From the IMG/VR virus record IMGVR_UViG_2718218355_000004: DNA of 54,006 bases. One strand, written 5' to 3'. Below the pieces are notes generated by a model. It worked only from the letters and a program-made list of their open reading frames with translations. It had not been told where the DNA came from and searched no databases. Positions 1,239 to 52,475 of this stretch are shown in pieces; within the stretch, counting starts at the first letter, position 1; every line of letters starts with the position of its first letter. The translations under genes were made by a program, and so were the position numbers. Source of the DNA: a virus (Duplodnaviria > Heunggongvirae > Uroviricota > Caudoviricetes).

Positions 1239-1814
1239 CTACGGCAGTGCTGGCCATTCAATATCCTGTGAAGTTGACGTATCAACACGGTTCAGCAATA
1301 CCCGATACTTTTTCCATGCTTCCAGCAACGAGATTTCTTCCTCCGTTGCAATTTCCAGATCTGCAGCATCCTGAAGCGGCGCAATATGCTCACTGGCTAC
1401 CTGCATCAGGTTGTTTTTTGTTTCTTCCGCCTCCCGGATCCGGAACAGTTTTTCTGCTTCCGTATCCTTCACCCAGGCTGTGCCGTTCCACTTCTGAAAC
1501 TCCCCTTCCGGCGATAACCAGGTAACATTTTCCGGTAACGGACCGAGTTCAGAAATAAATAACGCGTCGCCGGAAGCCACGTCATAAACCGTTTTACCCC
1601 GATGATCTTCAACGAGATGCCACGATGCCTCATCACTGTTGAAAACAGCCACGAAGCCTGCCGGAATATCTGGCGGTGCAATATCGGTACTGTTTGCTGG
1701 CAGACCTGTATGAGGCGGAATATATGCATCACCTTCACCAATAAATTCATTAGTTCCGGCCAGCAGATTATAAATTGTTATGGTCCGTGGTTGTTCACTC
1801 ATTCTGAATACCAT
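1239..1814 (-). CDS. tfaR: Tail fiber assembly protein (Tfa)
   Basis: 191 aa immediately downstream of the side tail fiber gene with overlapping stop/start; sequence typical of Tfa chaperones. Confidence 0.8.
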
Positions 1815-15899: not shown

Positions 15900-15947
15900 T
15901 CAATGCGTCCCCCTGTAGGGCAGTACCACAGGAGGAATAACGGAAAA

Positions 15948-16910
15948 TCAACTAATCGCCTCAGCACTGGCTTTTGCGATCACGGCAGCCGGGGAATTTT
16001 TTTTTCTGGTTATCGTAGGTGCTTCATCTGCTGCGGTAATGCTCAATTGAACCTGGATAATGTCGCTATTACCCCCATCAGGCCATTCACCTGACACCTG
16101 AACCTTCGGGAAACTGAAAGTGTATGCCCCCTCTCCATTCGAAAGCGTGAAGCTGAACGGAACTGTTTCTCCAGTCAGTGTTTTACTCCAGATTTCCCAC
16201 GCGGCTTTAGACCATGAAAGCGTCACCGTACCGGACGGTGTAAAAGTAGTCGGAATATTTGCTCCTGCATAAGGCGAGCCAGTCCCGATACAACGCTGTG
16301 TCTGGAGTTTGTTATCGAACTGAATATCAAAACTGTCGATACAAAAACCGTTACCTCCGGCAACACCATTCAGGCTTACTGCTGAAACCTCCTTAAACGA
16401 ATAACGTAGCTTTCCTGCACTATCCACAGGTTCGCCTTTGATAAAATTCGTATCATCGGCCTTTGATTCCCAGTCCAGTCCGGCAAAGGTTACGGTCGCT
16501 GTAATATCGCCGTCGTTAGGGATCTGCATTTTCCATGAGCCAACCTGCGCTCCTCTGACGACAGAGGCAATTCCGACATCGGACGCATAGGTCGCCAGAG
16601 AAAATGTTATTCGCTCATTCCCCATTGTCAGAGAATCGCCTGACCATTCCGCGCCGAAACAGGATGCAAGAAAATCATCATGTTGACCCCAGCGAAATTT
16701 GGTACCAACATCACCGCCGACATCCACAGTGCCAGGCGTCGCCCCCTGAGCCATCCGGGAGCCACCAATCTCATTATTTTCGCCTTTATTCTGGGTGGGT
16801 TTTACTCCCCAGCTTGTGCGTTTTAATAAACTCCAGTCACTACTTGCTGGCGTAGTGCCTGCAACCGTCTCCCGGATAAATGCCGAGATAACCTTTGCAC
16901 CTGAACTCAC
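15948..16910 (-). CDS. Major tail (tube) protein
   Basis: 320 aa with strong AGGAGG SD and a GTG start, directly upstream of the G/GT chaperones. Confidence 0.75.
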   Translation of the reverse strand: MSSGAKVISAFIRETVAGTTPASSDWSLLKRTSWGVKPTQNKGENNEIGGSRMAQGATPGTVDVGGDVGTKFRWGQHDDFLASCFGAEWSGDSLTMGNERITFSLATYASDVGIASVVRGAQVGSWKMQIPNDGDITATVTFAGLDWESKADDTNFIKGEPVDSAGKLRYSFKEVSAVSLNGVAGGNGFCIDSFDIQFDNKLQTQRCIGTGSPYAGANIPTTFTPSGTVTLSWSKAAWEIWSKTLTGETVPFSFTLSNGEGAYTFSFPKVQVSGEWPDGGNSDIIQVQLSITAADEAPTITRKKNSPAAVIAKASAEAIS

Positions 16911-29335: not shown

Positions 29336-29800
29336 TTACTTTAAACACTGCTCGGTTATGTATTGCTGAGCACCTTCAAGTTGGGCCTGCATCATTACCA
29401 GTCGTTCCCGGAGGGTGAAATAATCCCGTTCAGCGGTGTCTGCCAGTCGGGGGGAGGCTGCATTATCCACGCCGGAGGCGGTGGTGGCTTCACGCACTGA
29501 CTGACAGACTGCTTTGATGTGCAACCGACGACGACCAGCGGCAACATCATCACGCAGAACATCATTTTCAGCTTTCGCATCAGCTAACTCCTTCGTGTAT
29601 TTTGCATCGAGCGCAGCAACATCACGCTGACGCATCTGCATGTCAGTAATTGCCGCGTTCGCCAGCTTCAGTTCTCTGGCATTTTTGTCGCGCTGTTCTT
29701 TGTAGGCGATGGCGTTATCACGGTAATGATTAACACCCCATGACAGGCAGACGACGATGCAGATAACCAGAGCGGAGATAATCGCGGTTACTCTGTTCAT
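29336..29800 (-). CDS. Rz-like i-spanin
   Basis: N-terminal TM anchor followed by coiled-coil periplasmic domain; start overlaps endolysin stop; contains embedded Rz1. Confidence 0.8.
29395..29580 (-). CDS. Rz1-like o-spanin lipoprotein
   Basis: ORF embedded out-of-frame inside Rz; lipobox VVGC and a proline-rich stretch. Confidence 0.75.
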
Positions 29801-30294
29801 TGCTGACCCCACAAACAGATTTCACGCTCAATCTCACGACGAGTCATGAGACCTTTCCATTGCTTACCGCCAGCATATGTCCAGCGACGTAGCTGATCAC
29901 ATGCGCCTTTGATATCGCCCTGGTTTATTTTGCGAAGAAGCGTCGATGTTCTGAAATTGCCAGCACCCACGTTGTAAACGAATGAGTAAAGAGCGCCGCG
30001 CGTTGTTTCCGGTATATCGACTTTGATGTACGGGTTAATTTGTCTGGCGACCGTGGCAAGGTCTTTATTCAGGAGGGCTTTGCATTCTGCTTTGGTATAC
30101 GTTTTACCGAGCATGATGTCTTTTCCTGTATGCCCGTGACATACAGTCCATACACCAACAATATCTTTGTATGGTATGTAGCTGACACCTTCCAGACCAT
30201 CGTTACCACTTGGGCCAGTGATTAACACTGATGCTATAGCAATTGCTCCGCCACCAATAGCAGCAGCAACGACTTTTCGTAATGATGGAGGCAT
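29797..30294 (-). CDS. SAR endolysin (phage lysozyme, GH24-like)
   Basis: 165 aa with Gly/Ala-rich N-terminal signal-arrest-release segment and a lysozyme-like catalytic region. Confidence 0.85.
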
Positions 30295-30509
30295 TATTCA
30301 CCTCTCGCAGCCTTGCGCTTATCTTCTTTAATCTTGAAATAAAGGTTTGTCAGGTACGTCAGCAGGCCAAATACCAGACTACCCAGCACACCGATTGCAG
30401 CCCACTGTGACGGAGTTACTCTATCGAGCAACTGTAAAAACCAGTAGCCAGCACTGCCTGCGGAGGTGCCGTAGGCAATGCCTGTTGAAATTTTGTCCAT
30501 GGATTTCAT
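30294..30509 (-). CDS. Class II holin (phage 21 S-type pinholin)
   Basis: Start at MKSMDK (dual-start motif) with GGAGGTGAGG SD; two TM helices; charged C-terminus; overlaps endolysin start. Confidence 0.85.
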
Positions 30510-30611
30510 AGCCTCACCTCCGCACGGAACGGATGGCATAGTTATTATGTGTAGGCTTTCAGACACATCAATCAGAGCCTTAATTGATATATATGCTGGA
30601 GACGATGCAAT

Positions 30612-30635
30612 ATAAAAAGCTCGCCGTAGCGAGCT
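30612..30635 (-). terminator. Rho-independent terminator between the TolA-like genes and the holin
   Basis: Minus-strand AGCTCGC-TACG-GCGAGCT perfect 7-bp stem followed by TTTTTAT. Confidence 0.5.
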
Positions 30636-30760
30636 AATAAAATGTATTTCTCTGATATTATGTTTATTTGTATTAGCTCAGACTTGACATCACAGGTTTC
30701 GTATATAGAACATCATCAAATCTGTCAGTTTGCTATGAATGAGATATAGTAATTGAAGAG

Positions 30761-31156
30761 CTAACCTCGCATGTCAAAGCCAGATTTCTGAAAATCTCTG
30801 TAGACTTCCGGATTGTTGAAGGCCGGAAATTTGGCTTTATGAGCTGCGGACTTTATCGCTTCGCAATAGGCTTTATCACCGTTACTGGTAGATATTTTTA
30901 ACGCCGTGCCATCCTGAGAGAATTCCATATGCAACCTGCATTTTTTCCCTTTCCAGTTATGCGGCTCATCAAGTTTGGCATTAATTGCAGCTCTGATTCC
31001 CCGCGCTTGCGCCCCCCATTCATCCTGATCATCCCAGCGTCCTGAACTGCAACTACCTGTAGCAGTAGTTTTGTGGCAATCTGAAGGGTGTAAAGGTGTG
31101 CATCCCGCAACAAAACCGACCCAAAAAGTCAACATAACGATTTTCTTTAATCCCAC
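30761..31156 (-). CDS. Lipoprotein with TolA C-terminal domain (domain III)-like region, paralogue 2
   Basis: 131 aa; GTG start with GAGGAG SD; signal peptide plus lipobox VAGC; C-terminal region shares the spaced GKKC-L / DG / GD-C / EVY-F pattern with the neighbouring paralogue. Confidence 0.55.
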   Translation of the reverse strand: MGLKKIVMLTFWVGFVAGCTPLHPSDCHKTTATGSCSSGRWDDQDEWGAQARGIRAAINAKLDEPHNWKGKKCRLHMEFSQDGTALKISTSNGDKAYCEAIKSAAHKAKFPAFNNPEVYRDFQKSGFDMRG

Positions 31157-31306
31157 TTCTTGCTCCTCAATCCATTAAAATCTCAGCAATAGTAGTTGTT
31201 ACGTCCGCCACTGGCTCAGAGCTGACTATCCGCTAAATTTAGCTCAGTGCCGTAGCTGTGTCAGAACAAACCTAAGCCGAAACCGTTTATTACAAAACAA
31301 TAAATA

Positions 31307-31735
31307 TCAGGGTTTAAAATCCAGCACCCCATTTTGAAATACTTTATATACTTCCGGCGAAGGGGGGGCAGGTATATCAGCATTCTTTATCGCATTCATC
31401 GCTTCACGACATAAATCGAGGTCTCCACTTTCTCTTTTAACCTCCAGTAGAAGGCCATTCGGGGCCATATGCATTCTCAGTGTACACTCTTTTCCTGAAT
31501 ACTTACTCGCATCCCCGAACTGTTTTTCGATGGCGCTCTTGATTTGATGGGCATACAGACGGATATCCTCACTAACATCAGAAGTACGTTCAGATGAACT
31601 CACATACTGTGTCTCTATTGCTTTATCGGAGTAATATGATGTACGGTCATGATAATTTGTCGATACAGCATCAGTGCACCCGATAATAATCCCACTAATA
31701 ATCAACGTAAGAATTGATGCGCTACGAAAACCCAT
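31307..31735 (-). CDS. Lipoprotein with TolA C-terminal domain (domain III)-like region, paralogue 1
   Basis: 142 aa; signal peptide plus lipobox IIGC; C-terminal 85 aa (QIKSAIEKQF...GKECTLRMHMAPNGLLLEV...IPAPPSPEVYKVFQNGVLDFKP) closely resembles my recollection of the TolA C-terminus. Confidence 0.6.
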   Translation of the reverse strand: MGFRSASILTLIISGIIIGCTDAVSTNYHDRTSYYSDKAIETQYVSSSERTSDVSEDIRLYAHQIKSAIEKQFGDASKYSGKECTLRMHMAPNGLLLEVKRESGDLDLCREAMNAIKNADIPAPPSPEVYKVFQNGVLDFKP

Positions 31736-32326
31736 TTTTCCTCACATATGTCATATAGTAAAGGATTATATATACCGTTGTTTTGGACGCTCAAACAGCG
31801 AATCAGATCAAATAAAACGCACATTTGTTAACATTTACACAAAGTCTGCGTGGGATATTCTGAAAGAATATCCATAATGTGGAGAGAATCTATTGAAGTG
31901 CATGGTGCCGGGTGCCTCCCGGTGAACAAAATGTTCGTGATACCTGTCGGCGACAGAAAAGGTTAATGGTATCACCCCACCGCACAGGGGGATTCACCAT
32001 GCAGGAGTTTTCTTAGCAAACTCACTGCGCGCCCGGCAACTCCCAACCACATAAAATGCGGAGTTTGTGGTATTTATGCATATAACTCGCAGGAATTATC
32101 TTAAAAAACTGATGTCGATCCGGATTAAAAAGAAGCAGGTCATCATCAGATGACTGGAAAAAAGGAAAACAAAAAATACTCATCATACAGTTTTGATTGC
32201 AGGGATGAGCCTGCTATGCACAATATGCAGAATATAAGCAAGATAAAAATATGCAGGCATATTATTTCGGATTTTGTTATTAACACAACCTTTTTAATAA
32301 TCATTTGGCATACAATAAACCAGCCC

Positions 32327-32352
32327 AAAAAGAACCGCCTAAACAGGCGGTT
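32327..32352 (-). terminator. Rho-independent terminator on the minus strand
   Basis: AACCGCC-TGTTTA-GGCGGTT followed by CTTTTT on the minus strand, just below the IS2 insertion. Confidence 0.45.
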
Positions 32353-32600
32353 GGTCAATACAAAGGATGCTTCGTCTTTATTATAGTAATCTGAGGCGTC
32401 GGGTGTCTTGTATCAGACAACATATTGTCCCGCTAAACAGCGAATTACAAACCACCCTGCAATGATCTCTCATCTCATTTTATATGAGTTGACGACATCA
32501 GGATAACGCTAGACTGGCCCCCTGAATCTCCAGACAACCAATATCACTTAAATAAGTGATAGTCTTAATACTAGTTTTTAGACTAGTCATTGGAGAGCAG

Positions 32601-32966
32601 ATGATTGATGTCTTAGGACCGGAGAAACGCAGACGGCGTACTACACAGGAAAAGATCGCTATTGTTCAGCAGAGTTTTGAACCGGGAATGACGGTCTCCC
32701 TTGTTGCCCGGCAACACGGTGTGGCAGCCAGCCAGTTATTTCTCTGGCGCAAGCAATACCAGGAGGGAAGTCTTACTGCTGTGGCCGCAGGAGAGCAGGT
32801 CGTTCCTGCCTCTGAACTTGCTGCTGCCATGAAGCAGATTAAAGAACTCCAGCGCCTGCTCGGCAAAAAAACGATGGAAAATGAACTCCTTAAAGAAGCC
32901 GTTGAATACGGGCGTGCAAAAAAGTGGATAGCGCACGCGCCCTTATTGCCCGGGGATGGGGAGTAA
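32601..32966 (+). CDS. insC: IS2 transposase OrfA (InsC)
   Basis: 121 aa from ATG at [13 protein letters not shown]; HTH transposase N-terminal domain. Confidence 0.9.
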
Positions 32967-34945: not shown

Positions 34946-35544
34946 TACGCAAACTCCAGTAGTTGTGCGGCCACATTTTCAACTTCCTCCTGAGAGGAGA
35001 ATTTACGGAACAGAATCCAGTTCCACAGCACATTCAGTACAGATTTATAAACCTGCTGAAACTCGACTTCGTCCATATTCGCAAAAGCGATGGATTTTGC
35101 CCGACGCCCACGGCTACCGTCCGGATAAATATGCTCGGTGTAAAATCCGGCCTGAATGGTTACCCACTCGCGGAAAGCCTCAAACGACTTTAGCAACGCC
35201 GTATCCCGGGTTCTACGAGTCGCAACGGTGTTAAGGTATTGCTCTGCGGCATCACTCAGGGCTGGCGTGTGTTCCCGACCAACTGATTCGCACAGGTAAT
35301 CAACGAAACCAGACAGCAGTTCTCGTTCGCGAGGCGTGATCGCCCCACCGACCGGAGTCCAGTAATCGAATCCCAGTTGCAGGAGTTTGAAAAAACGCTT
35401 GTGGAATGCGTAGTTACGCACACGCTTAAAGTCTGCGTGTATCCACTCACCTATTTTGATTTGATGCAGAAAATCGCAACTCTCCGGCGTCGCCGGGAGA
35501 AGTAAACCAGAAGAAGTTTGTTTGACCAGTTGTATATGCGCCAT
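34945..35544 (-). CDS. nin-region phage protein (YbcN/DUF1367-like)
   Basis: 199 aa translationally coupled to the ybcO-like gene; family name uncertain. Confidence 0.4.
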   Translation of the reverse strand: MAHIQLVKQTSSGLLLPATPESCDFLHQIKIGEWIHADFKRVRNYAFHKRFFKLLQLGFDYWTPVGGAITPRERELLSGFVDYLCESVGREHTPALSDAAEQYLNTVATRRTRDTALLKSFEAFREWVTIQAGFYTEHIYPDGSRGRRAKSIAFANMDEVEFQQVYKSVLNVLWNWILFRKFSSQEEVENVAAQLLEFA

Positions 35545-35817
35545 TTCTCAATCTCTCGATGGCGCAGTGCAGCAGATGCCAGTTGTTCAGGCTGACGTAT
35601 AAAGTATAAATAAACTGGTTCCAGTGTAAAGCCCCCACCTTAATGGAATAAAAACCAAACAACAGATTGCTGGGATACAAACAACGCTTATTATTAAAAG
35701 CGGTTAAACAAATTAAATTTTAATGTTATGCAAATTTGTCAGATCACCATAATATCTCATTTGAAAACCGCTGAAATAACAATCCTATCAGGATTAATCA
35801 TATTAAGGTGAGTAAAT

Positions 35818-35904
35818 ATGGAAAACAACAAATCTGCACATTACGCTCCTTTTTTATCTGTAATACTTTTTGTTTTTTGCTGTGTATGGGCATTATTTTT
35901 ATAA
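35818..35904 (+). CDS. Candidate small hydrophobic peptide (28 aa)
   Basis: ATG preceded by AAGGTGAG SD; translation MENNKSAHYAPFLSVILFVFCCVWALFL has one predicted TM helix; not in supplied ORF track. Confidence 0.3.
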   Translation: MENNKSAHYAPFLSVILFVFCCVWALFL

Positions 35905-35980
35905 AAATATTCACAGATAAAATAAACTCGCCGAATCAGGTTAAGTGTGGGTGCGTTGAGGATGCCTGACACATCAGAGG

Positions 35981-36002
35981 CGGCGAGGGATTTCTCCCTC
36001 GC
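35981..36002. terminator. Perfect 9-bp-stem hairpin 3' of hok
   Basis: GGCGAGGGA-TTTC-TCCCTCGCC immediately downstream of the hok stop; no strong T-tract, so it may be an mRNA 3' stabilising structure rather than a terminator. Confidence 0.35.
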
Positions 36003-36012
36003 CTAGTCACTC

Positions 36013-36168
36013 TTACTCCTCAGGTTCGTAAGCTGTGAAGACAGCGACCTCCGTCTGACCGGTTCGGATTCGCACCTCGCAGAGGTCTTTCCTCGTTACC
36101 AGTGCCGTCACTATGACGGTTAAACAGATGACAATCAGTGCGACTAACATCGCCTTTTGCTGCTTCAT
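36013..36168 (-). CDS. hok: Hok/Gef-family type I toxin (51 aa)
   Basis: MKQQKAMLVALIVICLTVIVTALVTRKDLCEVRIRTGQTEVAVFTAYEPEE, near-identical to my recollection of HokD/RelF; AAGGAG SD 7 nt upstream; the longer in-frame ORF in the track is an artefactual extension. Confidence 0.85.
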   Translation of the reverse strand: MKQQKAMLVALIVICLTVIVTALVTRKDLCEVRIRTGQTEVAVFTAYEPEE

Positions 36169-36379
36169 AGCCTGCTTCTCCTTGCCTTCCGGCGCGTAAG
36201 AGGCTAACCTACATGTGCAAAGCATGAAATTGGCCTCAGATTAATGTTAAGCGTCTTGCCGGACGCGTAATGTTATCTGGGGCTTTTCTCTATCTGCCTT
36301 TGGTGTTCATGCCTGAGGCAGATAGCCTCAAGCACCCGCAGCAATTCTACTTAACTCCCGTCACCTCGCCAATATAAAA

Positions 36380-36469
36380 TCAATCAGAAAGGCGATCCAT
36401 AAGAACAACAGCAAGACAATAAATTGCCATTACAGCCGCAATAGCTAGCGCACATTTGAGAACCAGCAC
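36380..36469 (-). CDS. Candidate small hydrophobic peptide (29 aa)
   Basis: GTG start 5 nt after a perfect AGGAGG SD; translation MLVLKCALAIAAVMAIYCLAVVLMDRLSD; different frame from the 74-aa Cys-rich track ORF. Confidence 0.3.
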   Translation of the reverse strand: MLVLKCALAIAAVMAIYCLAVVLMDRLSD

Positions 36470-36888
36470 GACAACCTCCTGTATTGGACGTACACCAGTT
36501 CTGATAAATATGAGGCTGTCTCATCATTGATTCAATATAACTATTGGGTATAGTTTCTGTGATTTTGTTCTGTAGAAATGGAACACAACAACCAGTCACC
36601 ACCAGCACTTCTTTAAATACGCCAAGTCCGACGCAAGCTAACCTTCTAGTCCGCTTTGAGCGAGGAGCGGACCAAACCCGGCCAACTGACTCTTAAAGGG
36701 GCCGCAGGAATTTTTCGTCTGAACTTTCGAAGCTCCTCTCCCTGAAGACAGAAAACTTCTGTGTGCTGTGGGAATATTGAATCTTTGCCTTAGATATAAA
36801 TAATTTTATCCCGCCTGAAGTTTACATTATTTTATTTATCTGTTTTTCTAAATCAGACTGCACTCCTTACTTAAATCAGGAGCCAGTC

Positions 36889-38088
36889 ATGCCATTTGTT
36901 ATTTATGTGTTTACTATCAGTGCCTTTGCGCTCGGACTCGCGGAATTTGTCCCCATTGGGCTGACAGACGTTATGGCTCAGGGGTTGTGTGTGGGTGTGG
37001 AGCAGACCGGGGCAGCGGTTACAACCTATGCACTGGGGGCAACGTTCGCGGCACCCGTACTGTCTGCGCTGACAGCAAGCTGGAGCCGGAAAAATGTAAT
37101 GCTTACAACTGCCGTTGTGTTTACTGCCGGTAGTCTGGCGGCCGCGTTTGCAGCCACATTACCTCAGCTCCTGTTAGCGCGGTTCATTGCTGGTCTGGGA
37201 CACGGCCTGTTTCTGGCTGCGGCATCCAGTACCGCAGCTCGTCTTGCTGGACCGGGTAAAGCAGGCAGAGCGGTGGCTGTGGTATTTGGTGGCTTTACTC
37301 TGGCGATGGCAATCGGCGTACCGCTGAGTACATGGTTGGGGGGGGTGGTCTCATGGCGTCCAGTTCTCGGCGCTATTGCCGCTTTTGGCGCGTTCGGATT
37401 CCTTGGACTGTTGTTCGGTATGAAAGATCCCGTACGCAGCGTGCCCGGTGAACATAGTGACTCAGCAATGCAGAATATCGGCATGCTGTTTAACCGTAAG
37501 TTGCTGGCCGGCGCGCTGGTTACGGTGCTGGCGTATGCAGGCTCGTTTACGGATTACACCTTTATCGCACCTATTCTGACGCAGGTGACAGGGGTTACCG
37601 GAGCAACGGTGAGTCTGTTTATGCTGGTTTACGGTATTACAGCTGCGGTAGGTAATATTCTTGGTGGGAAACTTACCGACAGCATGGGGGTTAATCGTGC
37701 CAATATACTCATCATTAGCGGCATTGTTGTTGTCGTGCTTGGTATGTGGCTGCTGTCATCCTCACCGGTGAGCATGGGCATTCTGGTTGCGCTGCTGGGT
37801 ATGGTGACATTTGCCGCAGTGCCGGCACTGCAGGCCCGTCTGATTGGTGTCGCTGAGCAACATGCTCCTCATGCGCATGGTGTTGCTGCCGGCCTGAATA
37901 TTGCGGGCTTCAACTCAGGTATAGCGCTGGGATCAGTACTGGGCAGCATTACTATAAGCCACGCCGGTATCGTGTATACCGGTATCAGCGGTGCGATTGT
38001 TTCTCTGCTCGGCCTGCTGTTGCTGCTTGCACAAATCCGTCGCAGCCACAGTCGTAAATTTCAACAGGTTAAAATCGTAGGCCAGTAA
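36889..38088 (+). CDS. MFS transporter (sugar/drug efflux-like)
   Basis: 399 aa with about 12 predicted TM helices and an MFS-type loop 2-3 motif. Confidence 0.8.
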   Translation: MPFVIYVFTISAFALGLAEFVPIGLTDVMAQGLCVGVEQTGAAVTTYALGATFAAPVLSALTASWSRKNVMLTTAVVFTAGSLAAAFAATLPQLLLARFIAGLGHGLFLAAASSTAARLAGPGKAGRAVAVVFGGFTLAMAIGVPLSTWLGGVVSWRPVLGAIAAFGAFGFLGLLFGMKDPVRSVPGEHSDSAMQNIGMLFNRKLLAGALVTVLAYAGSFTDYTFIAPILTQVTGVTGATVSLFMLVYGITAAVGNILGGKLTDSMGVNRANILIISGIVVVVLGMWLLSSSPVSMGILVALLGMVTFAAVPALQARLIGVAEQHAPHAHGVAAGLNIAGFNSGIALGSVLGSITISHAGIVYTGISGAIVSLLGLLLLLAQIRRSHSRKFQQVKIVGQ

Positions 38089-38099
38089 AGGGAGGTTAT

Positions 38100-38792
38100 A
38101 TGCTTACCCGTGAAAATATGCTTAATGGCACATTTGTCAGGGTGCATGAAGCGCTGCTCCCGGCGAATATGCTCTGGGACGCTGAAAAAATACGCGCATC
38201 AATGAACTCTACTCTGGAGGAGCGCCCGACGGGTGCTCCTGTCTGGATATTTGCCTACGGGTCATTGATGTGGAATCCCGTGCTGGCGATTGAAGAAATG
38301 CAACGGGCCCGTCTGAAAGGATGGCAGCGCAGTTTCTGCATTCGTTTGATATCCGGACGAGCGACTCCTGATGTCCCCGGCAGGATGTTATCGCTCGACG
38401 AAGGTGGAATTACCGAAGGTATTGCGTTCAGACTGCCGGAATCGACTCTTATTAATGAGCTGGAAATTGTCTGGACGCGCGAGATGATAACCGGTCTTTA
38501 CCGTCCGGTCTGGGCAGACGTTTCGCTAGGAAACGGTGAGGAAATTCAGGCGCTGGCTTTCGTATCAGACAGACTGCATCCGCATTATGAACAGGACAAT
38601 CTTACAGCGACCGTAGCGTTGAGCATCGCATCTGCCCGTGGAGACATTGGCACGAATGCAGATTATGTATGGAAACTGCAGGCCACTCTGGGTGCGTTGG
38701 GAATACGGGATGATTACGTGAGTGAACTGGCCCTTGCTCTGCATGAGGCTCCCTGTAACGATAAACTTCATCAGCGAGGCGCTTCACTATGA
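38100..38792 (+). CDS. ChaC-family gamma-glutamylcyclotransferase-like protein
   Basis: 230 aa with the ChaC signature IFAYGSLMWNP and alignment to ChaC throughout, from memory. Confidence 0.8.
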   Translation: MLTRENMLNGTFVRVHEALLPANMLWDAEKIRASMNSTLEERPTGAPVWIFAYGSLMWNPVLAIEEMQRARLKGWQRSFCIRLISGRATPDVPGRMLSLDEGGITEGIAFRLPESTLINELEIVWTREMITGLYRPVWADVSLGNGEEIQALAFVSDRLHPHYEQDNLTATVALSIASARGDIGTNADYVWKLQATLGALGIRDDYVSELALALHEAPCNDKLHQRGASL

Positions 38793-39670
38793 GCCATCTG
38801 AGCCATCTGCGAACGTTTCTTGAGGCCTATCGCTCTGGCTCCTTTTCAAAGGCGGCAGAACTACTGGGCATCACTCAGCCCGCGGCGTCACAGCATATCC
38901 AGTCTCTTGAGACTCTGGTTGGTAAGCGTCTGTTTATCAGGCAGGCCAGAGGCGTGACGGCAACCGAAGCTGCGGATGAGCTTGCCCGCTCAGTTTCACC
39001 CTTCATTGATGGTCTGGAAGAAAAGCTGTCCTCTTTCCGGTCAGGCTCTGTACGCGGGGGAACAATTAATCTGGCAGGACCGCCAGATTTTATTCATTCC
39101 CGGCTTGGGACAGTAATGGCTCCACTAATGAAGGAGGGGTATCGCCTACGCTTTCATACCGGCAATAAGCAACGTATTTATTCCCTTTTGCATGACGGGA
39201 GCGCCGATCTCGCTGTTACCGCATCTATGCCTGATGACCGTCTGTACGGCTATGCACATCTACTGACTGAACGCATGCTCCTTGTTCATGCTCCCGCCAT
39301 GTCAGAGATCATCGGATCAGAACCTGGTGCTGAAACGCTTGCCTCATTACCGCTGATTGCTTATGACGAAGAGTTGCCACTGATTAGAGCGCTCTGGGCC
39401 TCCATGTTTCAGAGAGCCCCTGAGATGCAGGCTACATTCACCATTCCGGATTTACGTATTATCCGCGACTTGGTCTGTGACGGCCACGGGTGGACAGTGC
39501 TGCCGGATTATCACTGTGACAATGACCTGAAAAGTGGTCGCCTGATTTCAGTGACACCTGCAGACCTCGCTCCGACTAATCATCTTTATCTGGTCTGGAA
39601 CAAAAGGACGGCTAATAACAGCCGAACCGCCTATGTTCGGGATTACATTCTTAAAACGTTTCCGCGTTGA
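38789..39670 (+). CDS. LysR-family transcriptional regulator
   Basis: 293 aa; N-terminal LysR HTH (FSKAAELLGITQPAASQHIQSLE) and C-terminal substrate-binding domain; start overlaps the chaC-like stop. Confidence 0.85.
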   Translation: MSHLSHLRTFLEAYRSGSFSKAAELLGITQPAASQHIQSLETLVGKRLFIRQARGVTATEAADELARSVSPFIDGLEEKLSSFRSGSVRGGTINLAGPPDFIHSRLGTVMAPLMKEGYRLRFHTGNKQRIYSLLHDGSADLAVTASMPDDRLYGYAHLLTERMLLVHAPAMSEIIGSEPGAETLASLPLIAYDEELPLIRALWASMFQRAPEMQATFTIPDLRIIRDLVCDGHGWTVLPDYHCDNDLKSGRLISVTPADLAPTNHLYLVWNKRTANNSRTAYVRDYILKTFPR

Positions 39671-39800
39671 TGTTTGAAACGGATGATTGGCGATGCGTAT
39701 CATAAGTTACGTATGTCCGCTTCTGGCACAAAGCAGACGCCCACTCTCACGCGAATGCTTTGCCCTTGACTTGCCAACAACCGTATCGCTTGCTCCGCAA

Positions 39801-41078
39801 CTATGGTTTTTTATTAGAATCTTCGCCACTAAATAAATTATAATAAATTGATTTTATTATATATCTGTCAGAATCTATATGGTCAGCACGAGTAGCATGC
39901 TCTAATGTTTCAAATGCTAGGGTTTGTGCGGCTTCAGCAAAAATTCCAGGCCACCCCTTACTCAGCATCGACAGTCCTTTAAGTACCCTTATCTGAATTT
40001 CCCTCATACTGGCACCATCGCGCGCAACAGGTGAGAAAAAGTCTTCAAGTAGATCGTTATTCTGAAGTGGTGCAACATGTACAGAAGGATATTTCACTTC
40101 TATTTCATCAGATTTATTCTGCGCGTAAGCGGAAAGTATACGTACACCTCTGCCAATGACATCAATGGCGGTTCCAGGATCGTTCACTGCGGGGGAAAGG
40201 GCTCGGCAGGCTATTTCGGCCATGACGCTAAGACAAAATCGGGGGTCCTGAGCAAATGAACGTACATCCGAGACAATAATCGTCTCAAGTAAATCGGTGC
40301 TGATTGATGACTCCTGGCCCTGACTCAGGTACAAAACTGGCGTGGACGGATGTATGAAACTGCCCGGCTGCGCCACGAGGTATACATGACGGGGATCATT
40401 GGTCAGCAGCTTGCTGAGTTTCACCATATCAACATATTCAACATAGCCAATCTTTTTCGGATAAACTGCAACCGTTCCTTTCGGCTGTTCATTGTTCTCA
40501 AGCCATGGATATCCGCCGAGACAGGGATTTCTTGCTCTCGCAATAAATGTTTCGATGGCCGCCTGTTCTACTTTTGCCGTTGTCTCACCAACCCTCCCCA
40601 GAGAGGTCAAATGCTGTATCCAGCGAAGCAATGTGATGAGGATTAAGGCAATGACAACCAGTGTTACAATGAATAAAATGACTCTCCCCCTTTCTCCATA
40701 AGCTCCCATATTGAGGGCAATAATCCCTACCAGACTGAAGAGAAAAGAACCGATGAAGGTGGCCAGTACATTTTGTGTGGTGACGTCTTCAACAACTAAA
40801 CGAGTAGCTCTGGGAGTCACATTAGTAGTGGCTGAACCGTAGGCTGTGACCATGATGCTCAGCGAAAATGTGGTCACTGCCAGCATACTCGATGCCAGTA
40901 TGTTCAGAATGTTATCGACTGCTTCCGCACCAACTTTCACGGAAACCGACTCAGGTATCATTGATTTAAAAAGAATTGATAAAAGGGCCGTTATTATTGC
41001 GACAATTGCGAATAACGTTGCCCTGAACCATAGTTTTTTAAATGTCTGCTTCAGCATCCATTTCCAGCGTGAAATCAT
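39801..41078 (-). CDS. Membrane protein, DUF2254-like
   Basis: About 425 aa with N-terminal multi-TM region and soluble C-terminal domain; start chosen at internal ATG with GAGGGA SD; family by recollection. Confidence 0.5.
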   Translation of the reverse strand: MISRWKWMLKQTFKKLWFRATLFAIVAIITALLSILFKSMIPESVSVKVGAEAVDNILNILASSMLAVTTFSLSIMVTAYGSATTNVTPRATRLVVEDVTTQNVLATFIGSFLFSLVGIIALNMGAYGERGRVILFIVTLVVIALILITLLRWIQHLTSLGRVGETTAKVEQAAIETFIARARNPCLGGYPWLENNEQPKGTVAVYPKKIGYVEYVDMVKLSKLLTNDPRHVYLVAQPGSFIHPSTPVLYLSQGQESSISTDLLETIIVSDVRSFAQDPRFCLSVMAEIACRALSPAVNDPGTAIDVIGRGVRILSAYAQNKSDEIEVKYPSVHVAPLQNNDLLEDFFSPVARDGASMREIQIRVLKGLSMLSKGWPGIFAEAAQTLAFETLEHATRADHIDSDRYIIKSIYYNLFSGEDSNKKP

Positions 41079-41113
41079 TCTGCATTCCCTCATATTGCAG
41101 CCGGGATAAATAA

Positions 41114-41134
41114 ATGCCGCCTCTGTGGCGGCAT
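41114..41134 (-). terminator. Hairpin downstream of the BCCT transporter gene
   Basis: ATGCCGCC-ACAGA-GGCGGCAT (minus strand) followed by an A/T-rich tract. Confidence 0.35.
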
Positions 41135-41141
41135 GTTGCTG

Positions 41142-43145
41142 TTAACGAACCAGATGCAGGAAGTGCAGGTGTTTTTCGTACTGGTCCAGTATGTCATTAA
41201 TCAGCTGTTCCTGATTCCAGCCCATTACATCATAATTTTGGCCGCCCTCTTTGAGATAGACTTCAGCGCGATAATATCGATGTTGTTCACTCTGCTGCTC
41301 ATCATTATCCAGCGCAGCGAGCGCGAAGGTCGGTGAGTTATACCCGCGAAGCCTCACTTCATATATATAATTCAGCTCGTTGCCCAAATCGACTTCAAGG
41401 CGAATACGATCCTCGGCGGCGTCACTGATGTGGCTTATCGTTCCCTGCTTGTTAAGTTCCTCCTGAACCAGCGTCATGGCGGGTTGGATAATGTCGTCCA
41501 TAAAACGTTTCACAAGAGAGCGCTTCGGCAAATACGCGATATTGCGTAACCTTCTCTGCCAGGGAATTGGGTTACGTGCAGCCGTAGGAGCAATAGTCGC
41601 CATGCTAAGGCTTTCACGCTTGGTCAAATCCCGACGCAGGGCTTTTAACAGTCCGTATATGGATATTAATAAGATAACTGAGAAGGGCAATGCACTCGCT
41701 ATCGTTACGGTTTGCAACGCACTCAGCCCCCCTGCGATCAGCAGGGCAATAGCAACAACGCCCATGAGCGATGCCCAGAAAATTCGCTGCCAGACGGGCG
41801 TGTTTGCCACCCCACCTGATGCCAGAGTATCCACAACCATTGCCCCCGAATCAGCAGACGTTACAAAGAAGACGATGACCATCGCCATTGCAATGAATGA
41901 CAGCACGGAAGAGAACGGGAAATGCTCCAGGAAATTAAACAGGGCAAGCGCAACATCCTGCTGAACGGTATTGGCGAGGTCAGTGGCGCCCTGGTTCATG
42001 ATGAGATAGATGGCGCTGTTTCCAAACACCGTCATCCACATGAGCGTAAAGCCGGCGGGAACAAACAACACGCCAGTCACGAACTCACGAATTGTCCTGC
42101 CGCGGGAAACGCGTGCAATGAACATACCTACAAACGGCGACCATGAAAGCCACCATCCCCAGTATAATAATGTCCAGCCCCCCAGCCAGTTGCTCGACTT
42201 GGGTTCATACGCGTAAAGGTTGAACGTTTTACTCACCAGTTCCGACAGATAACCACCCGTATTTTCCACAAATGACTTCAGCAGAAGCACAGTGGGACCC
42301 AGGCACAAGACCAGCGCCAGGAGCAACACCGCCAGGCCCAGATTAAGCTCAGACAGGATGCGTATTCCCTTGTCCAGGCCGGACACCACCGAAATCGTCG
42401 CTAACCCCGTGATGACCACGATCAAAATGACCTGTACCGTTTCATTGATGGGCACGCCGAAAAGATGGTTCAAACCGGCATTCACCTGCAATACACCGTA
42501 ACCCAGCGATGTTGCAACGCCAAAGACAGTGCCTATCACGGCGAAGATATCAACCGCGTGGCCTATAGGCCCGTAAATGCGATCGCCGATAATGGGATAG
42601 AGCGCAGAACGCAGCGTTAAAGGCAGACCGTGACGGTAACTGAAAAAGGCCAGAATCAGCGCCACGATGGCATAAATTGCCCATGCGTGCAGACCCCAGT
42701 GGAAGAACGTCAGGCGCATGGCTTCCTTCGCTGCCGCAACGGTCTCTGGAGTGCCGACAGGTGGCGAAAGATAATGCATCACAGGTTCGGCAACGCCAAA
42801 GAACATCAGGCCGATCCCCATCCCTGCCGAAAAAAGCATCGCGAACCAGGAGTGGTAGCTGAAATCAGGCTGCGCATGGTCTGGGCCCAGCTTTATATCA
42901 CCGTAACGTGAGAGTCCAAGGAACGTGACGCTCAGTAAAATCAGGGCCACAGCAAGTATGTAGAACCAGCTGGCATTCGTGAAGATTTGTTGCTGAAGTA
43001 GTTTAAAATTTTTGTCGGCGACATCCGGGAATACGGCGGCAAAGGCGACAAGAAGGAAAATTAGCAAAGCAGATGTAAAGAATACCGCTTTGTTAATCTG
43101 GCTTGTAGACTTCTTTGGGGTTGTATCATTTTCACTCATAATCAT
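41142..43145 (-). CDS. BCCT-family transporter, BetT-like (choline/betaine/carnitine)
   Basis: 667 aa; BCCT transmembrane core with conserved Trp-rich motif (WTLLYWGWWLSWSPFVGMFIARVSRGRTIREF) and long C-terminal cytoplasmic extension like BetT. Confidence 0.85.
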   Translation of the reverse strand: MIMSENDTTPKKSTSQINKAVFFTSALLIFLLVAFAAVFPDVADKNFKLLQQQIFTNASWFYILAVALILLSVTFLGLSRYGDIKLGPDHAQPDFSYHSWFAMLFSAGMGIGLMFFGVAEPVMHYLSPPVGTPETVAAAKEAMRLTFFHWGLHAWAIYAIVALILAFFSYRHGLPLTLRSALYPIIGDRIYGPIGHAVDIFAVIGTVFGVATSLGYGVLQVNAGLNHLFGVPINETVQVILIVVITGLATISVVSGLDKGIRILSELNLGLAVLLLALVLCLGPTVLLLKSFVENTGGYLSELVSKTFNLYAYEPKSSNWLGGWTLLYWGWWLSWSPFVGMFIARVSRGRTIREFVTGVLFVPAGFTLMWMTVFGNSAIYLIMNQGATDLANTVQQDVALALFNFLEHFPFSSVLSFIAMAMVIVFFVTSADSGAMVVDTLASGGVANTPVWQRIFWASLMGVVAIALLIAGGLSALQTVTIASALPFSVILLISIYGLLKALRRDLTKRESLSMATIAPTAARNPIPWQRRLRNIAYLPKRSLVKRFMDDIIQPAMTLVQEELNKQGTISHISDAAEDRIRLEVDLGNELNYIYEVRLRGYNSPTFALAALDNDEQQSEQHRYYRAEVYLKEGGQNYDVMGWNQEQLINDILDQYEKHLHFLHLVR

Positions 43146-52078: not shown

Positions 52079-52273
52079 ATGAGATATGACAATGTTAAAC
52101 CATGTCCATTTTGTGGTTGTCCATCAGTAACGGTGAAAGCCATTTCAGGATATTACCGAGCGAAGTGTAACGGATGCGAATCCCGAACCGGTTATGGTGG
52201 AAGTGAAAAAGAAGCACTCGAAAGATGGAATAAACGAACCACTGGAAATAATAATGGAGGTGTTCATGTATAA
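52079..52273 (+). CDS. ralR: Restriction alleviation protein RalR/Lar
   Basis: 64 aa from ATG at MRYDNVKPCPFCGC, Cys-rich. Confidence 0.8.
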   Translation: MRYDNVKPCPFCGCPSVTVKAISGYYRAKCNGCESRTGYGGSEKEALERWNKRTTGNNNGGVHV

Positions 52274-52475
52274 AATTACCGCCACTATTGAAAAGGAAGG
52301 TGGCACTCCTACTAACTGGACAAGATATTCAAAATCTAAACTAACGAAATCAGAATGCGAAAAAATGCTCTCAGGTAAAAAAGAAGCAGGCGTTTCCAGA
52401 GAGCAGAAAGTAAAACTGATAAATTTTAATTGCGAGAAACTTCAGTCCTCGAGAATTGCATTGTATTCAAATTAA
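52266..52475 (+). CDS. ydaC: YdaC-like small protein
   Basis: 69 aa from ATG at MYKITATIEKEGG, overlapping the ralR stop. Confidence 0.6.
   Translation: MYKITATIEKEGGTPTNWTRYSKSKLTKSECEKMLSGKKEAGVSREQKVKLINFNCEKLQSSRIALYSN

What the first reader, a model, noticed from the sequence alone, without database searches (positions are those of the whole stretch)
35981..36330. Hok-family toxin locus without relBE, with structured leader and 3' hairpin
A 51-aa Hok/Gef-type toxin gene with good SD is present in the nin region. Its leader (minus strand) carries a 9-bp inverted repeat (36290-36325), and a perfect 9-bp-stem hairpin lies just 3' of the stop (35981-36002); these could be the fold-back elements that regulate hok mRNAs. 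No antisense Sok promoter could be assigned by eye, so whether the toxin is controlled is open.
Basis: partly seen in the sequence, partly recalled or inferred. Interest (0 to 1): 0.5.

Follow-up and report, generated by a model that had tools for sequence, protein, structure and literature searches.

The report
Complete hok/mok/sok toxin-antitoxin cassette in Rac prophage

Summary
A 51-aa Hok/Gef toxin gene lies at 36013-36168 (minus strand), with a 9/10-bp leader stem and a perfect 9-bp hairpin just 3' of the stop.

It is a canonical hok/mok/sok type I toxin-antitoxin cassette, about 36372-35915. Rfam's sok family matches the leader at 116 bits (cut-off 59). 63 E. coli genome records match an 801-nt stretch at >=99% identity (the 15 listed are 100% identical), where the gene is annotated hokD. 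The locus is 92% identical to hokW-sokW of Stx2 prophage Sp5, which has been shown experimentally to be a type I system.

The two hairpins are conserved parts of the hok mRNA and show compensatory changes, but they are not the fold-back pair. That pair (tac/fbi) is 36326-36337 with 35949-35961.

A Sok gene can be assigned on the plus strand: -35 TTGCCT (36182-36187), 17-nt spacer, -10 TAACCT (36205-36210), start near 36217, about 77 nt long. Both hexamers are identical to those of sokW.

K-12 hokD keeps only the part from 36182 downstream, so this locus is the intact form.

The one anomaly is the terminator after fbi. It is destroyed in this allele (-0.4 versus -11.3 kcal/mol). Only 64 of 2757 E. 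coli records carry the allele. No expression or toxicity data exist for it.

Novelty is nil and interest is low.

The parts
36344..36372 (-). hok/mok promoter: -35 TTGGCG (36372-36367), 17-nt spacer, -10 TAGAAT (36349-36344)
   Evidence: Found by the consensus scan. A -10-like hexamer (TAGAAT, TATGAT, TACAAT or TATAAT) sits exactly 6 nt before the conserved GGGTGC/GGCGC in the window type, R1 type, IncHI1B-typed plasmid type and hokC loci. The -35 is not conserved among relatives, so it is the weaker inference.
35949..36337 (-). hok mRNA from the inferred start (G at 36337) to the end of fbi (389 nt). In relatives the transcript continues about 30 nt further to a terminator.
   Evidence: The Rfam sok model starts at 36337. 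The start is placed by alignment to the R1 hok mRNA 5' end. The 400-nt fold has a z-score of -6.5 against shuffles.
36326..36337 (-). tac (translational activator element), GGGUGCUUGAGG, mRNA nt 1-12
   Evidence: Pairs with 35949-35961 in the full-length minimum-energy fold. 97.7% of cells are paired across 77 loci. Position 4 is U-A here and C-G in R1, with both the fbi partner and the metastable partner.
36309..36319 (-). 3' arm of the metastable 5' hairpin of the nascent transcript (nt 19-29, pairing with nt 3-13)
   Evidence: Hairpin of -19.6 kcal/mol in the first 36 nt. 99.8% of cells are paired in 77 loci, with a U-A to C-G change in the R1 type. The concept is described in PMC9841398.
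36290..36325 (-). Central stem of the 5' tac-stem hairpin (nt 13-22 with nt 39-48).
   Evidence: 97.1% of cells paired. Compensatory series A-U / G-U / G-C / U-A at one pair and C-G / U-A at another.
36279..36285 (-). ucb (anti-SD of mok), AAGCCCC, nt 53-59
   Evidence: Pairs with the mok SD in the full-length fold, and with tac when the mRNA is cut at 35975 or 35970. Invariant GCCCC in alignment A2. The tac/ucb helix is 99.4% paired.
36234..36237 (-). mok Shine-Dalgarno GAGG, 8 nt before the mok ATG
   Evidence: Invariant in 77 loci. Sequestered by ucb in the full-length fold. Corresponds to R1 G105-G108 (PMC9841398).
36013..36225 (-). mok reading frame (70 codons), here in frame with hok as in mokC/hokC
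   Evidence: ORF list. The same 213-nt ORF is annotated in VT2-Sakai (orf74) and as mok in phage Rac 442/2. The mok ATG is conserved, but its frame relative to hok varies among relatives because of 1-2 nt indels.
36200..36204 (-). dcb (downstream complementary box), GCCUC, next to the Sok -10 on the other strand
   Evidence: Invariant GCCTCTT in A2, R1 included. Identified by alignment to R1, where the Sok-promoter mutation lies in dcb (PMC9841398). The pairing itself was not tested here.
36182..36210 (+). Sok promoter: -35 TTGCCT (36182-36187), 17-nt spacer, -10 TAACCT (36205-36210)
   Evidence: Coordinates. Both hexamers and the spacing are identical to hokW-sokW of Sp5. There the -10 was mutated TAACCT to GAGCCG to give a promoter-less construct, as inferred from primer YO-421. 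R1 has TTGCGC-17-TATCCT at the same place. The scan tool missed it because the -10 has only 3 of 6 consensus bases.
36217..36293 (+). Predicted Sok antisense RNA, about 77 nt: a free 5' tail of about 9 nt in the fold, a long hairpin, then GGGGCUUUUCUCUAU
   Evidence: Fold of -30.6 kcal/mol. Both ends were placed by eye against the annotated K-12 sokC coordinates; hokC-type loci from other strains align to the window without gaps across the start region in A2. Expression was not tested.
36013..36168 (-). hok toxin gene, 51 aa, one residue (I9V) from K-12 HokD
   Evidence: Pfam HOK_GEF 83.6 bits. Weak NCBIfam Hok-family match, below that model's cut-off. PGAP name hokD in identical genomes. Comparison with K-12 hokD.
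35982..36003 (-). Perfect 9-bp hairpin (GAAA loop) 10 nt after the stop; inferred 3'-terminal stem-loop of the processed mRNA
   Evidence: 98.8% of cells paired and 5 of 9 pairs with compensatory changes. The role is inferred from R1, where mutations weakening this stem-loop abolish toxicity (PMC9841398).
35949..35961 (-). fbi (fold-back inhibitory element), CCUCAA(C)GCACCC
   Evidence: Pairs with nt 1-12 in the minimum-energy fold. Found as repeats I13/I4. More than 90% conserved in alignment A2. The R1-type control gives the same architecture.
35915..35942 (-). Degenerate intrinsic terminator: AACCUGA-UUCG-GCGAGUU followed by UAUUUUAU
   Evidence: Four near-unique substitutions at 35938, 35936, 35928 and 35923. 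Hairpin -0.4 versus -11.3 kcal/mol for the consensus. The allele is in 64 of 2757 E. coli records that match this stretch.

Best explanation
This is a complete hok/mok/sok type I toxin-antitoxin cassette of the hokD/hokW type, carried in the nin-like region of a Rac-like prophage.

Inferred mechanism, by homology to R1 hok/sok and Sp5 hokW-sokW:
1. A constitutive promoter (-10 at 36344-36349) starts the hok mRNA at about 36337.
2. While the mRNA is being made, its 5' end folds into a metastable hairpin.
3. In the finished mRNA the 5' tac element pairs with the 3' fbi element. The ucb box then covers the mok ribosome-binding site, so the mRNA is stable, untranslated and not bound by Sok.
4. Slow 3' trimming, back to the 9-bp hairpin at 35982-36003, removes fbi.
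5. tac then pairs with ucb, which exposes the mok ribosome-binding site and the Sok target.
6. If the short-lived Sok RNA (plus strand, about 36217-36293) is present, it pairs with the mRNA and the duplex is destroyed. If Sok is gone, mok is translated and with it hok. In this allele mok is in frame with hok, so reading from the mok ATG gives a 70-aa extended Hok.
7. The membrane peptide then kills or lyses the cell.

Shown here: the Hok domain, sequence homology, presence and positions of all elements, predicted pairings and their conservation and covariation.
Inferred: transcription starts, 3' processing, Sok expression, toxicity and biological role. The role could be prophage retention or help with lysis on induction, as reported for hokW-sokW.
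For: - Pfam HOK_GEF E=7e-24.
- Rfam RF01794 sok, 116.1 bits against a cut-off of 59, over 36163-36337.
- An 801-nt stretch matches at >=99% identity in 63 E. coli records (the 15 listed are 100% identical), annotated hokD; 4767 of 5426 genomes hold a related locus.
- Phage copies at 91-94% identity, annotated hok, mok or mokW.
- 92.4% identity over 420 nt to hokW-sokW of VT2-Sakai/Sp5, with identical Sok promoter hexamers. That system was shown to be a type I TA, with a promoter-less sokW control and northern detection of sokW (PMC8621323).
- In about 80 IMG/VR prophage loci, homology starts near the hok -10 and stops after the terminator. The unit is therefore a discrete cassette of about 430 nt.
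- The full-length fold pairs nt 1-12 with nt 377-389, and ucb with the mok SD; z = -6.5. The R1-type control gives the same architecture.
- Across 77 distinct loci, 94.4% of cells in the structure are paired, against 39-49% for slid registers. 14 pairs carry compensatory changes (0 of 500 shuffles reach this).
- The tac/ucb helix and the metastable helix are 99.4% and 99.8% paired.
- The predicted Sok ends, placed by eye, coincide with the annotated ends of K-12 sokC.
Against: - There are no expression or toxicity data for this allele.
- The intrinsic terminator after fbi is destroyed. The 3' end of the transcript, and the way trimming starts, may therefore differ from the model.
- The Sok -10 has only 3 of 6 consensus bases and was not picked up by the scan.
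- Several chromosomal hok loci were reported unable to mediate post-segregational killing (cited in bioRxiv 10.1101/2025.08.07.668861).
- Folds of the truncated mRNA depend on the chosen 3' end. The R1 control cut at nt 361 gives the metastable hairpin rather than tac/ucb. The refolding step is therefore only consistent with the model, not demonstrated.
- The tac/fbi helix is almost invariant in the sample, so covariation for it rests mainly on the comparison with R1.
Confidence: 0.9

Rival explanations
1. The cassette is a decaying relic. It is intact in sequence but no longer works as a conditional killer, like the inactivated chromosomal hok loci of K-12, and the lost terminator is the first visible lesion.
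For: The terminator hairpin is reduced to -0.4 kcal/mol by four near-unique substitutions, none of them compensatory. The prophage around it is degraded, with IS5 and IS3 insertions, a split tolA-like gene and a truncated recombinase. Chromosomal hok loci are reported inactive for post-segregational killing.
Against: Every other element is intact and identical or near-identical to the functional hokW-sokW locus. The Hok ORF has no lesion and differs from K-12 HokD by one conservative residue. The allele is kept at >=99% identity in 63-64 E. coli records from varied sources (pig, chicken, duck, deer, human among those listed). A toxin gene with a live promoter and a dead antitoxin would not persist, so at least Sok control, or silence of both genes, must hold.
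Confidence: 0.2
2. Hok is expressed here without antisense control. This is the reader's open possibility: for example it could be driven only by read-through from upstream phage transcription and act purely as an auxiliary lysis protein.
For: The consensus scan finds no plus-strand promoter in the leader. hokW contributes to lysis and phage release on induction (PMC8621323).
Against: The Sok promoter hexamers, spacing and start region are identical to sokW, which is transcribed from its own promoter and neutralises HokW. The Sok terminator hairpin plus U-tract is intact at -30.6 kcal/mol. The leader scores 116 bits against the Rfam sok family.
Confidence: 0.03
3. Without a terminator, the hok transcript of this allele reads through into the downstream DUF1367-ybcO-Q genes. 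The hok mRNA would then be the 5' part of a longer operon transcript, and fbi removal would depend on endonuclease cleavage rather than on 3' trimming from a terminator. This would be a variant regulatory timing.
For: The terminator is lost. No other terminator-like site lies on the minus strand between 35924 and the next gene at 35544. The downstream genes are on the same strand.
Against: This is inference only. An A/U-rich tract remains and could still allow some termination or Rho-dependent termination in the 380-nt non-coding stretch. The allele is rare, in 64 of 2757 records, so it may simply be neutral drift.
Confidence: 0.25

Closest known systems
hokW-sokW of Sakai prophage 5 / VT2-Sakai (Takada et al. 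2021, PMC8621323)
   Same: Both sit in a lambdoid prophage upstream of the late-gene region. 92.4% nucleotide identity over 420 nt. The hok promoter -10, tac, ucb, mok SD, the 70-codon in-frame mok ORF, the Sok -35/-10 hexamers and spacing, and fbi are the same.
   Different: The Hok C-terminus differs (TAYEPEE here, VDYESEK in HokW), and there is an I9V change. The 3' hairpin sequence differs by compensatory changes. This allele lacks a working terminator. The host prophage is Rac-like, not an Stx phage.
hok/sok (parB) of plasmid R1
   Same: Same architecture and order of elements: promoter, tac, metastable hairpin, central stem, ucb, mok SD, mok, dcb with the Sok promoter, hok, 3' stem-loop, fbi. 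The fold has the same architecture as the R1-type control. Covarying positions link the two.
   Different: The Hok protein is only 39% identical. mok is out of frame with hok in R1 (my reading of the recalled R1 sequence). The leader loop and the Sok hairpin differ in length; Sok is about 77 nt here and about 64 nt in R1 (R1 length from my own knowledge). R1 is plasmid-borne with a post-segregational killing role.
hokD (relF) of the K-12 Qin prophage
   Same: The Hok protein is 50/51 identical. The DNA is about 94% identical from 14 nt before the hok ATG through fbi and the terminator. PGAP gives this locus the name hokD.
   Different: In K-12 everything upstream of window position 36182 is replaced by relBE. 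The hok promoter, tac, ucb, mok start, Sok RNA and Sok -10 are all missing there. Here all of them are present, and relBE is absent.
hokC(gef)/mokC/sokC of the E. coli chromosome
   Same: 75% DNA identity. mok is in frame with hok. The Sok ends coincide with those I place here. The tac sequence is identical.
   Different: hokC lies in the core chromosome next to dnaJ and is interrupted by IS186 in K-12. Its Sok is shorter, at 59 nt. Its terminator is different.

Membership tests
[quoted passage not shown] | Small Hok/Gef membrane toxin (Pfam PF01848) | tested here: met
   83.6 bits against a cut-off of 22, E=7e-24. The Cys15, Thr17, Leu29, Glu31, Glu40 and Ala46 positions shared by six Hok proteins are present.
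[quoted passage not shown] | Leader RNA homologous to the family (Rfam RF01794) | tested here: met
   116.1 bits against a gathering score of 59, full model 1-157, at 36163-36337 on the minus strand.
[quoted passage not shown] | Upstream overlapping mok frame with its own SD, through which hok is translated | tested here: met
   70-codon ORF at 36013-36225, with GAGG 8 nt upstream. The mok ATG and SD are conserved in 77 loci while the frame relative to hok varies. Translational coupling itself was not tested.
[quoted passage not shown] | Cis-encoded antisense Sok gene (promoter, target-complementary 5' tail, terminator hairpin) overlapping the mok start region | tested here: met
   TTGCCT-17-TAACCT at 36182-36210, hairpin plus U-tract at -30.6 kcal/mol. 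Hexamers identical to the validated sokW. Ends placed by eye at the positions of annotated sokC. The gene is present in sequence; whether it is transcribed was not tested.
[quoted passage not shown] | Long-range tac/fbi pairing between the 5' and 3' ends of the full-length mRNA | tested here: met
   A 12-bp helix with one bulge in the minimum-energy fold. 97.7% of cells paired in 77 loci. U-A here versus C-G in R1 at position 4.
[quoted passage not shown] | ucb/mok-SD pairing in the closed form, and the alternative tac/ucb stem in the processed form | tested here: inconclusive
   The closed form is predicted and 100% paired in its core helix. The tac/ucb stem is 99.4% paired but almost invariant. 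It appears as the minimum-energy fold only for some 3' ends, and not in the R1 control at nt 361.
[quoted passage not shown] | Metastable 5' hairpin of the nascent transcript | tested here: met
   -19.6 kcal/mol. 99.8% of cells paired, with a compensatory change in the R1 type.
[quoted passage not shown] | [quoted passage not shown] | tested here: met
   Perfect 9-bp stem at -19.6 kcal/mol. 5 of 9 pairs show compensatory changes.
[quoted passage not shown] | Intrinsic terminator after fbi (present in the consensus of this subfamily) | tested here: not met
   Window hairpin -0.4 versus consensus -11.3 kcal/mol. This is an allele-specific lesion rather than a family-level criterion.
[quoted passage not shown] | Hok toxicity, and neutralisation by Sok through RNA pairing | not testable with these tools
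   Shown for the 92%-identical hokW-sokW locus (PMC8621323) and for the HokD coding sequence (bioRxiv 10.1101/2025.08.07.668861). Not shown for this allele.
relBE-hokD (relF) arrangement of K-12 Qin | hok gene lying directly downstream of relE in K-12, with no leader, mok or sok of its own | tested here: not met
   No relBE is present. The full leader, mok and sok are present. K-12 homology starts only at window position 36182.

The most novel reading that the evidence does not exclude
The terminator-less allele, found in 64 E. coli genome records, may rewire the hok timer. The toxin mRNA would be made as the 5' part of a transcript reading into the DUF1367-ybcO-Q late-control genes, so that Hok activation is tied to prophage late-gene transcription. 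Separately, the conserved but unannotated 29-34-aa membrane ORF that abuts the hok promoter (36380-36469) may be a new small protein partner of prophage hok cassettes.
Probability: 0.1. Interest if true: 0.35.

Novelty: already known. Interest (0 to 1): 0.1.

Why it matters
It matters little for discovery. hok/sok is the founding type I toxin-antitoxin family, hok genes are known to be enriched in prophages (bioRxiv 10.1101/2025.08.07.668861), and a 92%-identical prophage locus (hokW-sokW) has been characterised experimentally.

The practical value is in annotation. RefSeq labels only the 51-aa CDS as hokD, a name borrowed from the truncated K-12 copy. It omits mok, the Sok RNA and the regulatory elements, although this locus is the intact form of which K-12 hokD is a remnant.

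The broken terminator gives a natural allele for testing how the 3' end sets the activation delay of hok mRNAs.

Tried and rejected
- The sigma-70 and terminator consensus scan found the hok promoter. It missed the Sok promoter (its -10 has 3 of 6 consensus bases), the Sok terminator and the remnant of the hok terminator. These were placed by homology instead.
Diversity was taken instead from IMG/VR prophages, ~90-120-kb IncHI1B-typed plasmids, hokC loci and R1-type plasmids.
- MAFFT did not align the R1 3' UTR in register, so the R1 tac/fbi covariation was read by hand and from a separate fold.
- Folds of the truncated mRNA change with the chosen end. The R1 control at nt 361 does not give tac/ucb. 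I therefore do not treat the refolding step as demonstrated.
- A permissive Rfam scan of 35500-36900 found nothing beyond sok.
Pfam, PHROGs and NCBIfam gave no family.
- I considered that the two 9-bp stems were chance matches, since a third perfect 9-bp repeat at 36149-36157 / 36388-36396 probably is. I rejected this for the two flagged stems because of their conservation and compensatory changes.
- I considered the K-12-like relBE-hokD arrangement and rejected it.
Full report
**What is in the sequence**

- On the minus strand, 36013-36168 encodes a 51-aa peptide: MKQQKAMLVALIVICLTVIVTALVTRKDLCEVRIRTGQTEVAVFTAYEPEE. AAGGAG lies 9 nt before the ATG.
- The peptide matches Pfam HOK_GEF at 83.6 bits, E=7e-24. 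It differs from K-12 HokD by one residue, I9V.
- The same frame is open from an ATG at 36225. This gives a 70-codon mok frame in frame with hok, as in mokC/hokC of K-12 and orf74 of VT2-Sakai.
  - The leader repeat is CTATCTGCC/GGCAGATAG (36325-36317 with 36298-36290).
  - The 3' hairpin is a perfect 9-bp stem with a GAAA loop at 35982-36003, one base off the stated coordinates.

**Identity of the locus**

- Rfam's sok family (RF01794) matches 36163-36337 on the minus strand, end to end, at 116.1 bits against a gathering score of 59. A permissive scan of the region found nothing else.
- An 801-nt stretch around the locus matches at >=99% identity in 63 E. coli genome records; the 15 listed are 100% identical. 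Only the 51-aa CDS is annotated there, as hokD. 4767 of 5426 complete E. coli genomes hold a related locus.
- Phage records match at 91-94%, with annotations such as HokD, MokW, mok and hok.
- The window is collinear with strain CP53. It covers chromosomal genes from tynA/feaB to uspF, followed by a Rac-like prophage: recE, racC, kilR, sieB, ydaT, lysis genes, trkG, terminase and capsid. The RalA sRNA also falls in the prophage.

**The unit is a discrete cassette**

- In about 80 IMG/VR prophage loci that encode a 98-100% identical Hok, DNA homology to the window nearly always runs from about 36357 to about 35924. That is from just upstream of the hok -10 to the end of the terminator. The flanks differ between loci.
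- K-12 hokD, and two K-12-like loci, match only from window position 36182 downstream, which is 14 nt before the hok ATG. In K-12, relE and relB occupy the place of the leader.
- The window therefore holds the intact form of which K-12 hokD is a truncated remnant. From my own knowledge, this agrees with Pedersen and Gerdes (1999), who attributed hokD inactivation to a major rearrangement.

**Map of the regulatory elements**

*Promoter and transcription start*
- The promoter scan finds TTGGCG-17-TAGAAT at 36372-36344 on the minus strand.
- In the window type, the R1 type, the IncHI1B-typed plasmid type and hokC loci, a -10-like hexamer (TAGAAT, TATGAT, TACAAT, TATAAT) sits exactly 6 nt before the conserved GGGTGC/GGCGC. 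This puts the start at about 36337, where the Rfam model also begins.

*Full-length fold*
- A 397-400-nt transcript from 36337 folds with a z-score of -6.5 against shuffles.
- In this fold nt 1-12 (36337-36326, GGGUGCUUGAGG) pair with nt 377-389 (35961-35949, CCUCAA-C-GCACCC).
- The AAGCCCC box (36285-36279) pairs with the mok ribosome-binding site GAGG (36237-36234).
- This is the tac/fbi and ucb/SD arrangement described for the closed, full-length R1 hok mRNA (PMC9841398).
- An R1-type sequence folded the same way gives tac(1-7)/fbi(390-396) and ucb(71-75)/SD(105-109). I had recalled that sequence from memory and confirmed it at 100% identity in IncF plasmids.

*Truncated and nascent folds*
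- Cutting the window mRNA at 35975 or 35970 switches the 5' end to pair with ucb, forming the tac stem.
- Other cut points give the 5' metastable hairpin instead (nt 3-13 with nt 19-29, -19.6 kcal/mol).
- The R1 control cut at nt 361 also gives the metastable hairpin. The refolding step is therefore consistent with the model but is not shown by these folds.

- The leader repeat is the central stem of the 5' tac-stem hairpin (nt 13-22 with nt 39-48). It is present in the full-length fold and in two of the five truncated folds.
- The 3' hairpin lies 10 nt after the stop and 20 nt before fbi. It corresponds to the last stem-loop of the processed R1 mRNA. Mutations that weaken that stem-loop abolish toxicity, which the authors ascribe to exposure to 3'-to-5' exonucleases (PMC9841398).
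- Neither hairpin is the fold-back pair.

**Conservation and covariation**

I aligned 77 distinct loci: the window, IMG/VR prophages, phage Rac 442/2, ~90-120-kb IncHI1B-typed plasmids, IS-free hokC loci and two R1-type plasmids. I then counted pairs for the structures read from the window.

| Structure | Cells paired | Compensatory changes |
|---|---|---|
| Whole closed form | 94.4% | 14 pairs (shuffles 4.7 +/- 1.6; 0 of 500 reach it) |
| Registers slid 1-3 columns | 39-49% | 5-9 pairs |
| tac/fbi | 97.7% | none in this alignment (helix almost invariant) |
| Leader stem | 97.1% | 2 pairs (A-U/G-U/G-C/U-A and C-G/U-A) |
| 3' hairpin | 98.8% | 5 of 9 pairs |
| tac/ucb | 99.4% | none (helix almost invariant) |
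| Metastable hairpin | 99.8% | 1 pair (R1 type) |

- Position 4 of the mRNA is U in the window type and C in the R1 type. Its metastable partner and its fbi partner both change to match, from A to G.
- From my own knowledge, this is the kind of coupled covariation reported for the family by Gultyaev, Franch and Gerdes (1997).

**The Sok gene**

- By alignment, the plus strand reads CTCCTTGCCTTCCGGCGCGTAAGAGGCTAACCTACATGTGCAAAGC. The -35 is TTGCCT (36182-36187), the spacer is 17 nt, the -10 is TAACCT (36205-36210), and a G lies 7 nt further on at 36217.
- R1 has TTGCGC-17-TATCCT at the same place.
- The hokW-sokW locus of Sakai prophage 5 is 92.4% identical to the window over 420 nt. It has the same two hexamers and the same spacing, with only two spacer differences.
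- Takada et al. showed three things for hokW-sokW (PMC8621323):
  - HokW is toxic.
  - sokW expressed from its own promoter neutralises it, and a promoter-less mutant loses that protection. Their primer YO-421 shows the change was TAACCT to GAGCCG.
  - sokW RNA is detectable from the native prophage.
- The predicted window Sok RNA runs from 36217 to about 36293, about 77 nt. It has a free 5' tail of about 9 nt in the fold and a long hairpin (-30.6 kcal/mol) followed by GGGGCUUUUCUCUAU. Placed by eye against K-12, its two ends coincide with the annotated ends of sokC.
- The hairpin is the antisense image of the ucb/SD hairpin. The Sok -10 adjoins the invariant GCCUC that corresponds to dcb in R1.

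**The one anomaly**

- In the subfamily consensus, and in K-12 hokD, fbi is followed 6 nt later by AACCCGC-TTCG-GCGGGTTTTT, an obvious intrinsic terminator.
- The window has AACCTGA-TTCG-GCGAGTTTATTTT. Four substitutions (35938, 35936, 35928, 35923) are each found in only 1-3 of 65 relatives, and none is compensatory.
- The hairpin drops from -11.3 to -0.4 kcal/mol.
- The allele is in 64 of 2757 E. coli records that match this stretch. That is about the same set as the 63 records that share the whole 801-nt region at >=99%.
- No other terminator-like site lies on this strand before the next gene at 35544.
- I cannot tell whether this causes read-through into DUF1367-ybcO-Q, alters the 3'-trimming delay, or is neutral drift in a degraded prophage.

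**Mechanism and role**

- The most likely reading is a standard hok/mok/sok module working as in R1 and Sp5.
  - A stable, closed mRNA is activated slowly by 3' trimming.
  - A short-lived antisense RNA removes the activated form.
  - The membrane toxin is translated through mok when Sok is lost.
- The biological role is inferred only. It could be retention of the prophage or cargo, or earlier lysis and better phage release on induction, as reported for hokW-sokW.
- hok genes are reported to be enriched about four-fold in prophages (bioRxiv 10.1101/2025.08.07.668861), so the location is expected.

**Verdict**

The feature is already known. Interest is low. The only points worth a second look are the broken terminator and the small conserved ORF just upstream.

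Noticed in passing
window 36380-36469 (minus strand): Unannotated 29-aa hydrophobic ORF, MLVLKCALAIAAVMAIYCLAVVLMDRLSD, with a GTG start and AGGAGG 6 nt upstream. It ends 7 nt before the hok -35. It is kept as an open frame next to hok in about 25 lambdoid prophage loci. These include a 34-aa form, MSDDISLAMEGALAVIAVVGVYCLVVFLMDRLGN, that differs at 34-35 of 90 nt. Differences are enriched at third codon positions (54, against 34 and 23). No Pfam, PHROG or NCBIfam family matches, and it is unannotated in RefSeq and in phages Tritos, Evi and mEp460.
   Followed up: partly
window 35915-35942 (minus strand): The intrinsic terminator of the hok mRNA is destroyed by four near-unique, non-compensatory substitutions (-0.4 versus -11.3 kcal/mol). 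The allele is in 64 of 2757 matching E. coli records. The consequence for transcript ends is unknown.
   Followed up: partly
window 36026-36031 (minus strand; Hok Tyr47 codon TAC at 36028-36030): The Tyr47 codon lies in UUACGAA, a sequence like the tRNA-Arg anticodon loop. TACGAA is invariant across the window type, hokC and R1 loci. A preprint states that hokC, hokD and hokE mRNAs undergo TadA A-to-I editing that recodes this Tyr to Cys (bioRxiv 10.1101/2025.08.07.668861). Not tested here.
   Followed up: no
window 36889-43139: A cargo block of about 6 kb with non-phage genes (MFS transporter, gamma-glutamylcyclotransferase, LysR regulator, DUF2254 protein, BCCT transporter). It sits inside the Rac-like prophage between the replication/ydaT region and the hok cassette. 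Of the fetched loci, only CP53 and one IMG/VR contig share it.
   Followed up: partly
window 52272-52450 (minus strand): RalA sRNA, the antitoxin of the RalR/RalA type I system of Rac, at 225 bits, full length. This prophage therefore carries two type I toxin-antitoxin systems.
   Followed up: no
window 29362-32903: IS3-family and IS5 insertions, with the IS5 splitting a TolA-like gene downstream of Q. The Rfam STnc100 hit at 31846-32032 (minus strand) lies inside the IS5 transposase gene. The prophage also ends in a truncated recombinase at 15601-16107, so it is probably defective.
   Followed up: no
window 1273-1471 (minus strand): Rfam IS009 RNA family hit at 221 bits, inside the feaB coding region (258-1757) of the chromosomal flank.
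   Followed up: no
alignment A2 columns 140-175 (window 36168-36225): Among close relatives, the mok frame is either in frame or out of frame with hok, because of a 1-nt insertion (AAGG-T-CAAGG) and a 2-nt deletion after the mok ATG. The mok ATG and SD stay conserved. This fits the idea that mok matters as a translated frame, not as a protein.
   Followed up: partly
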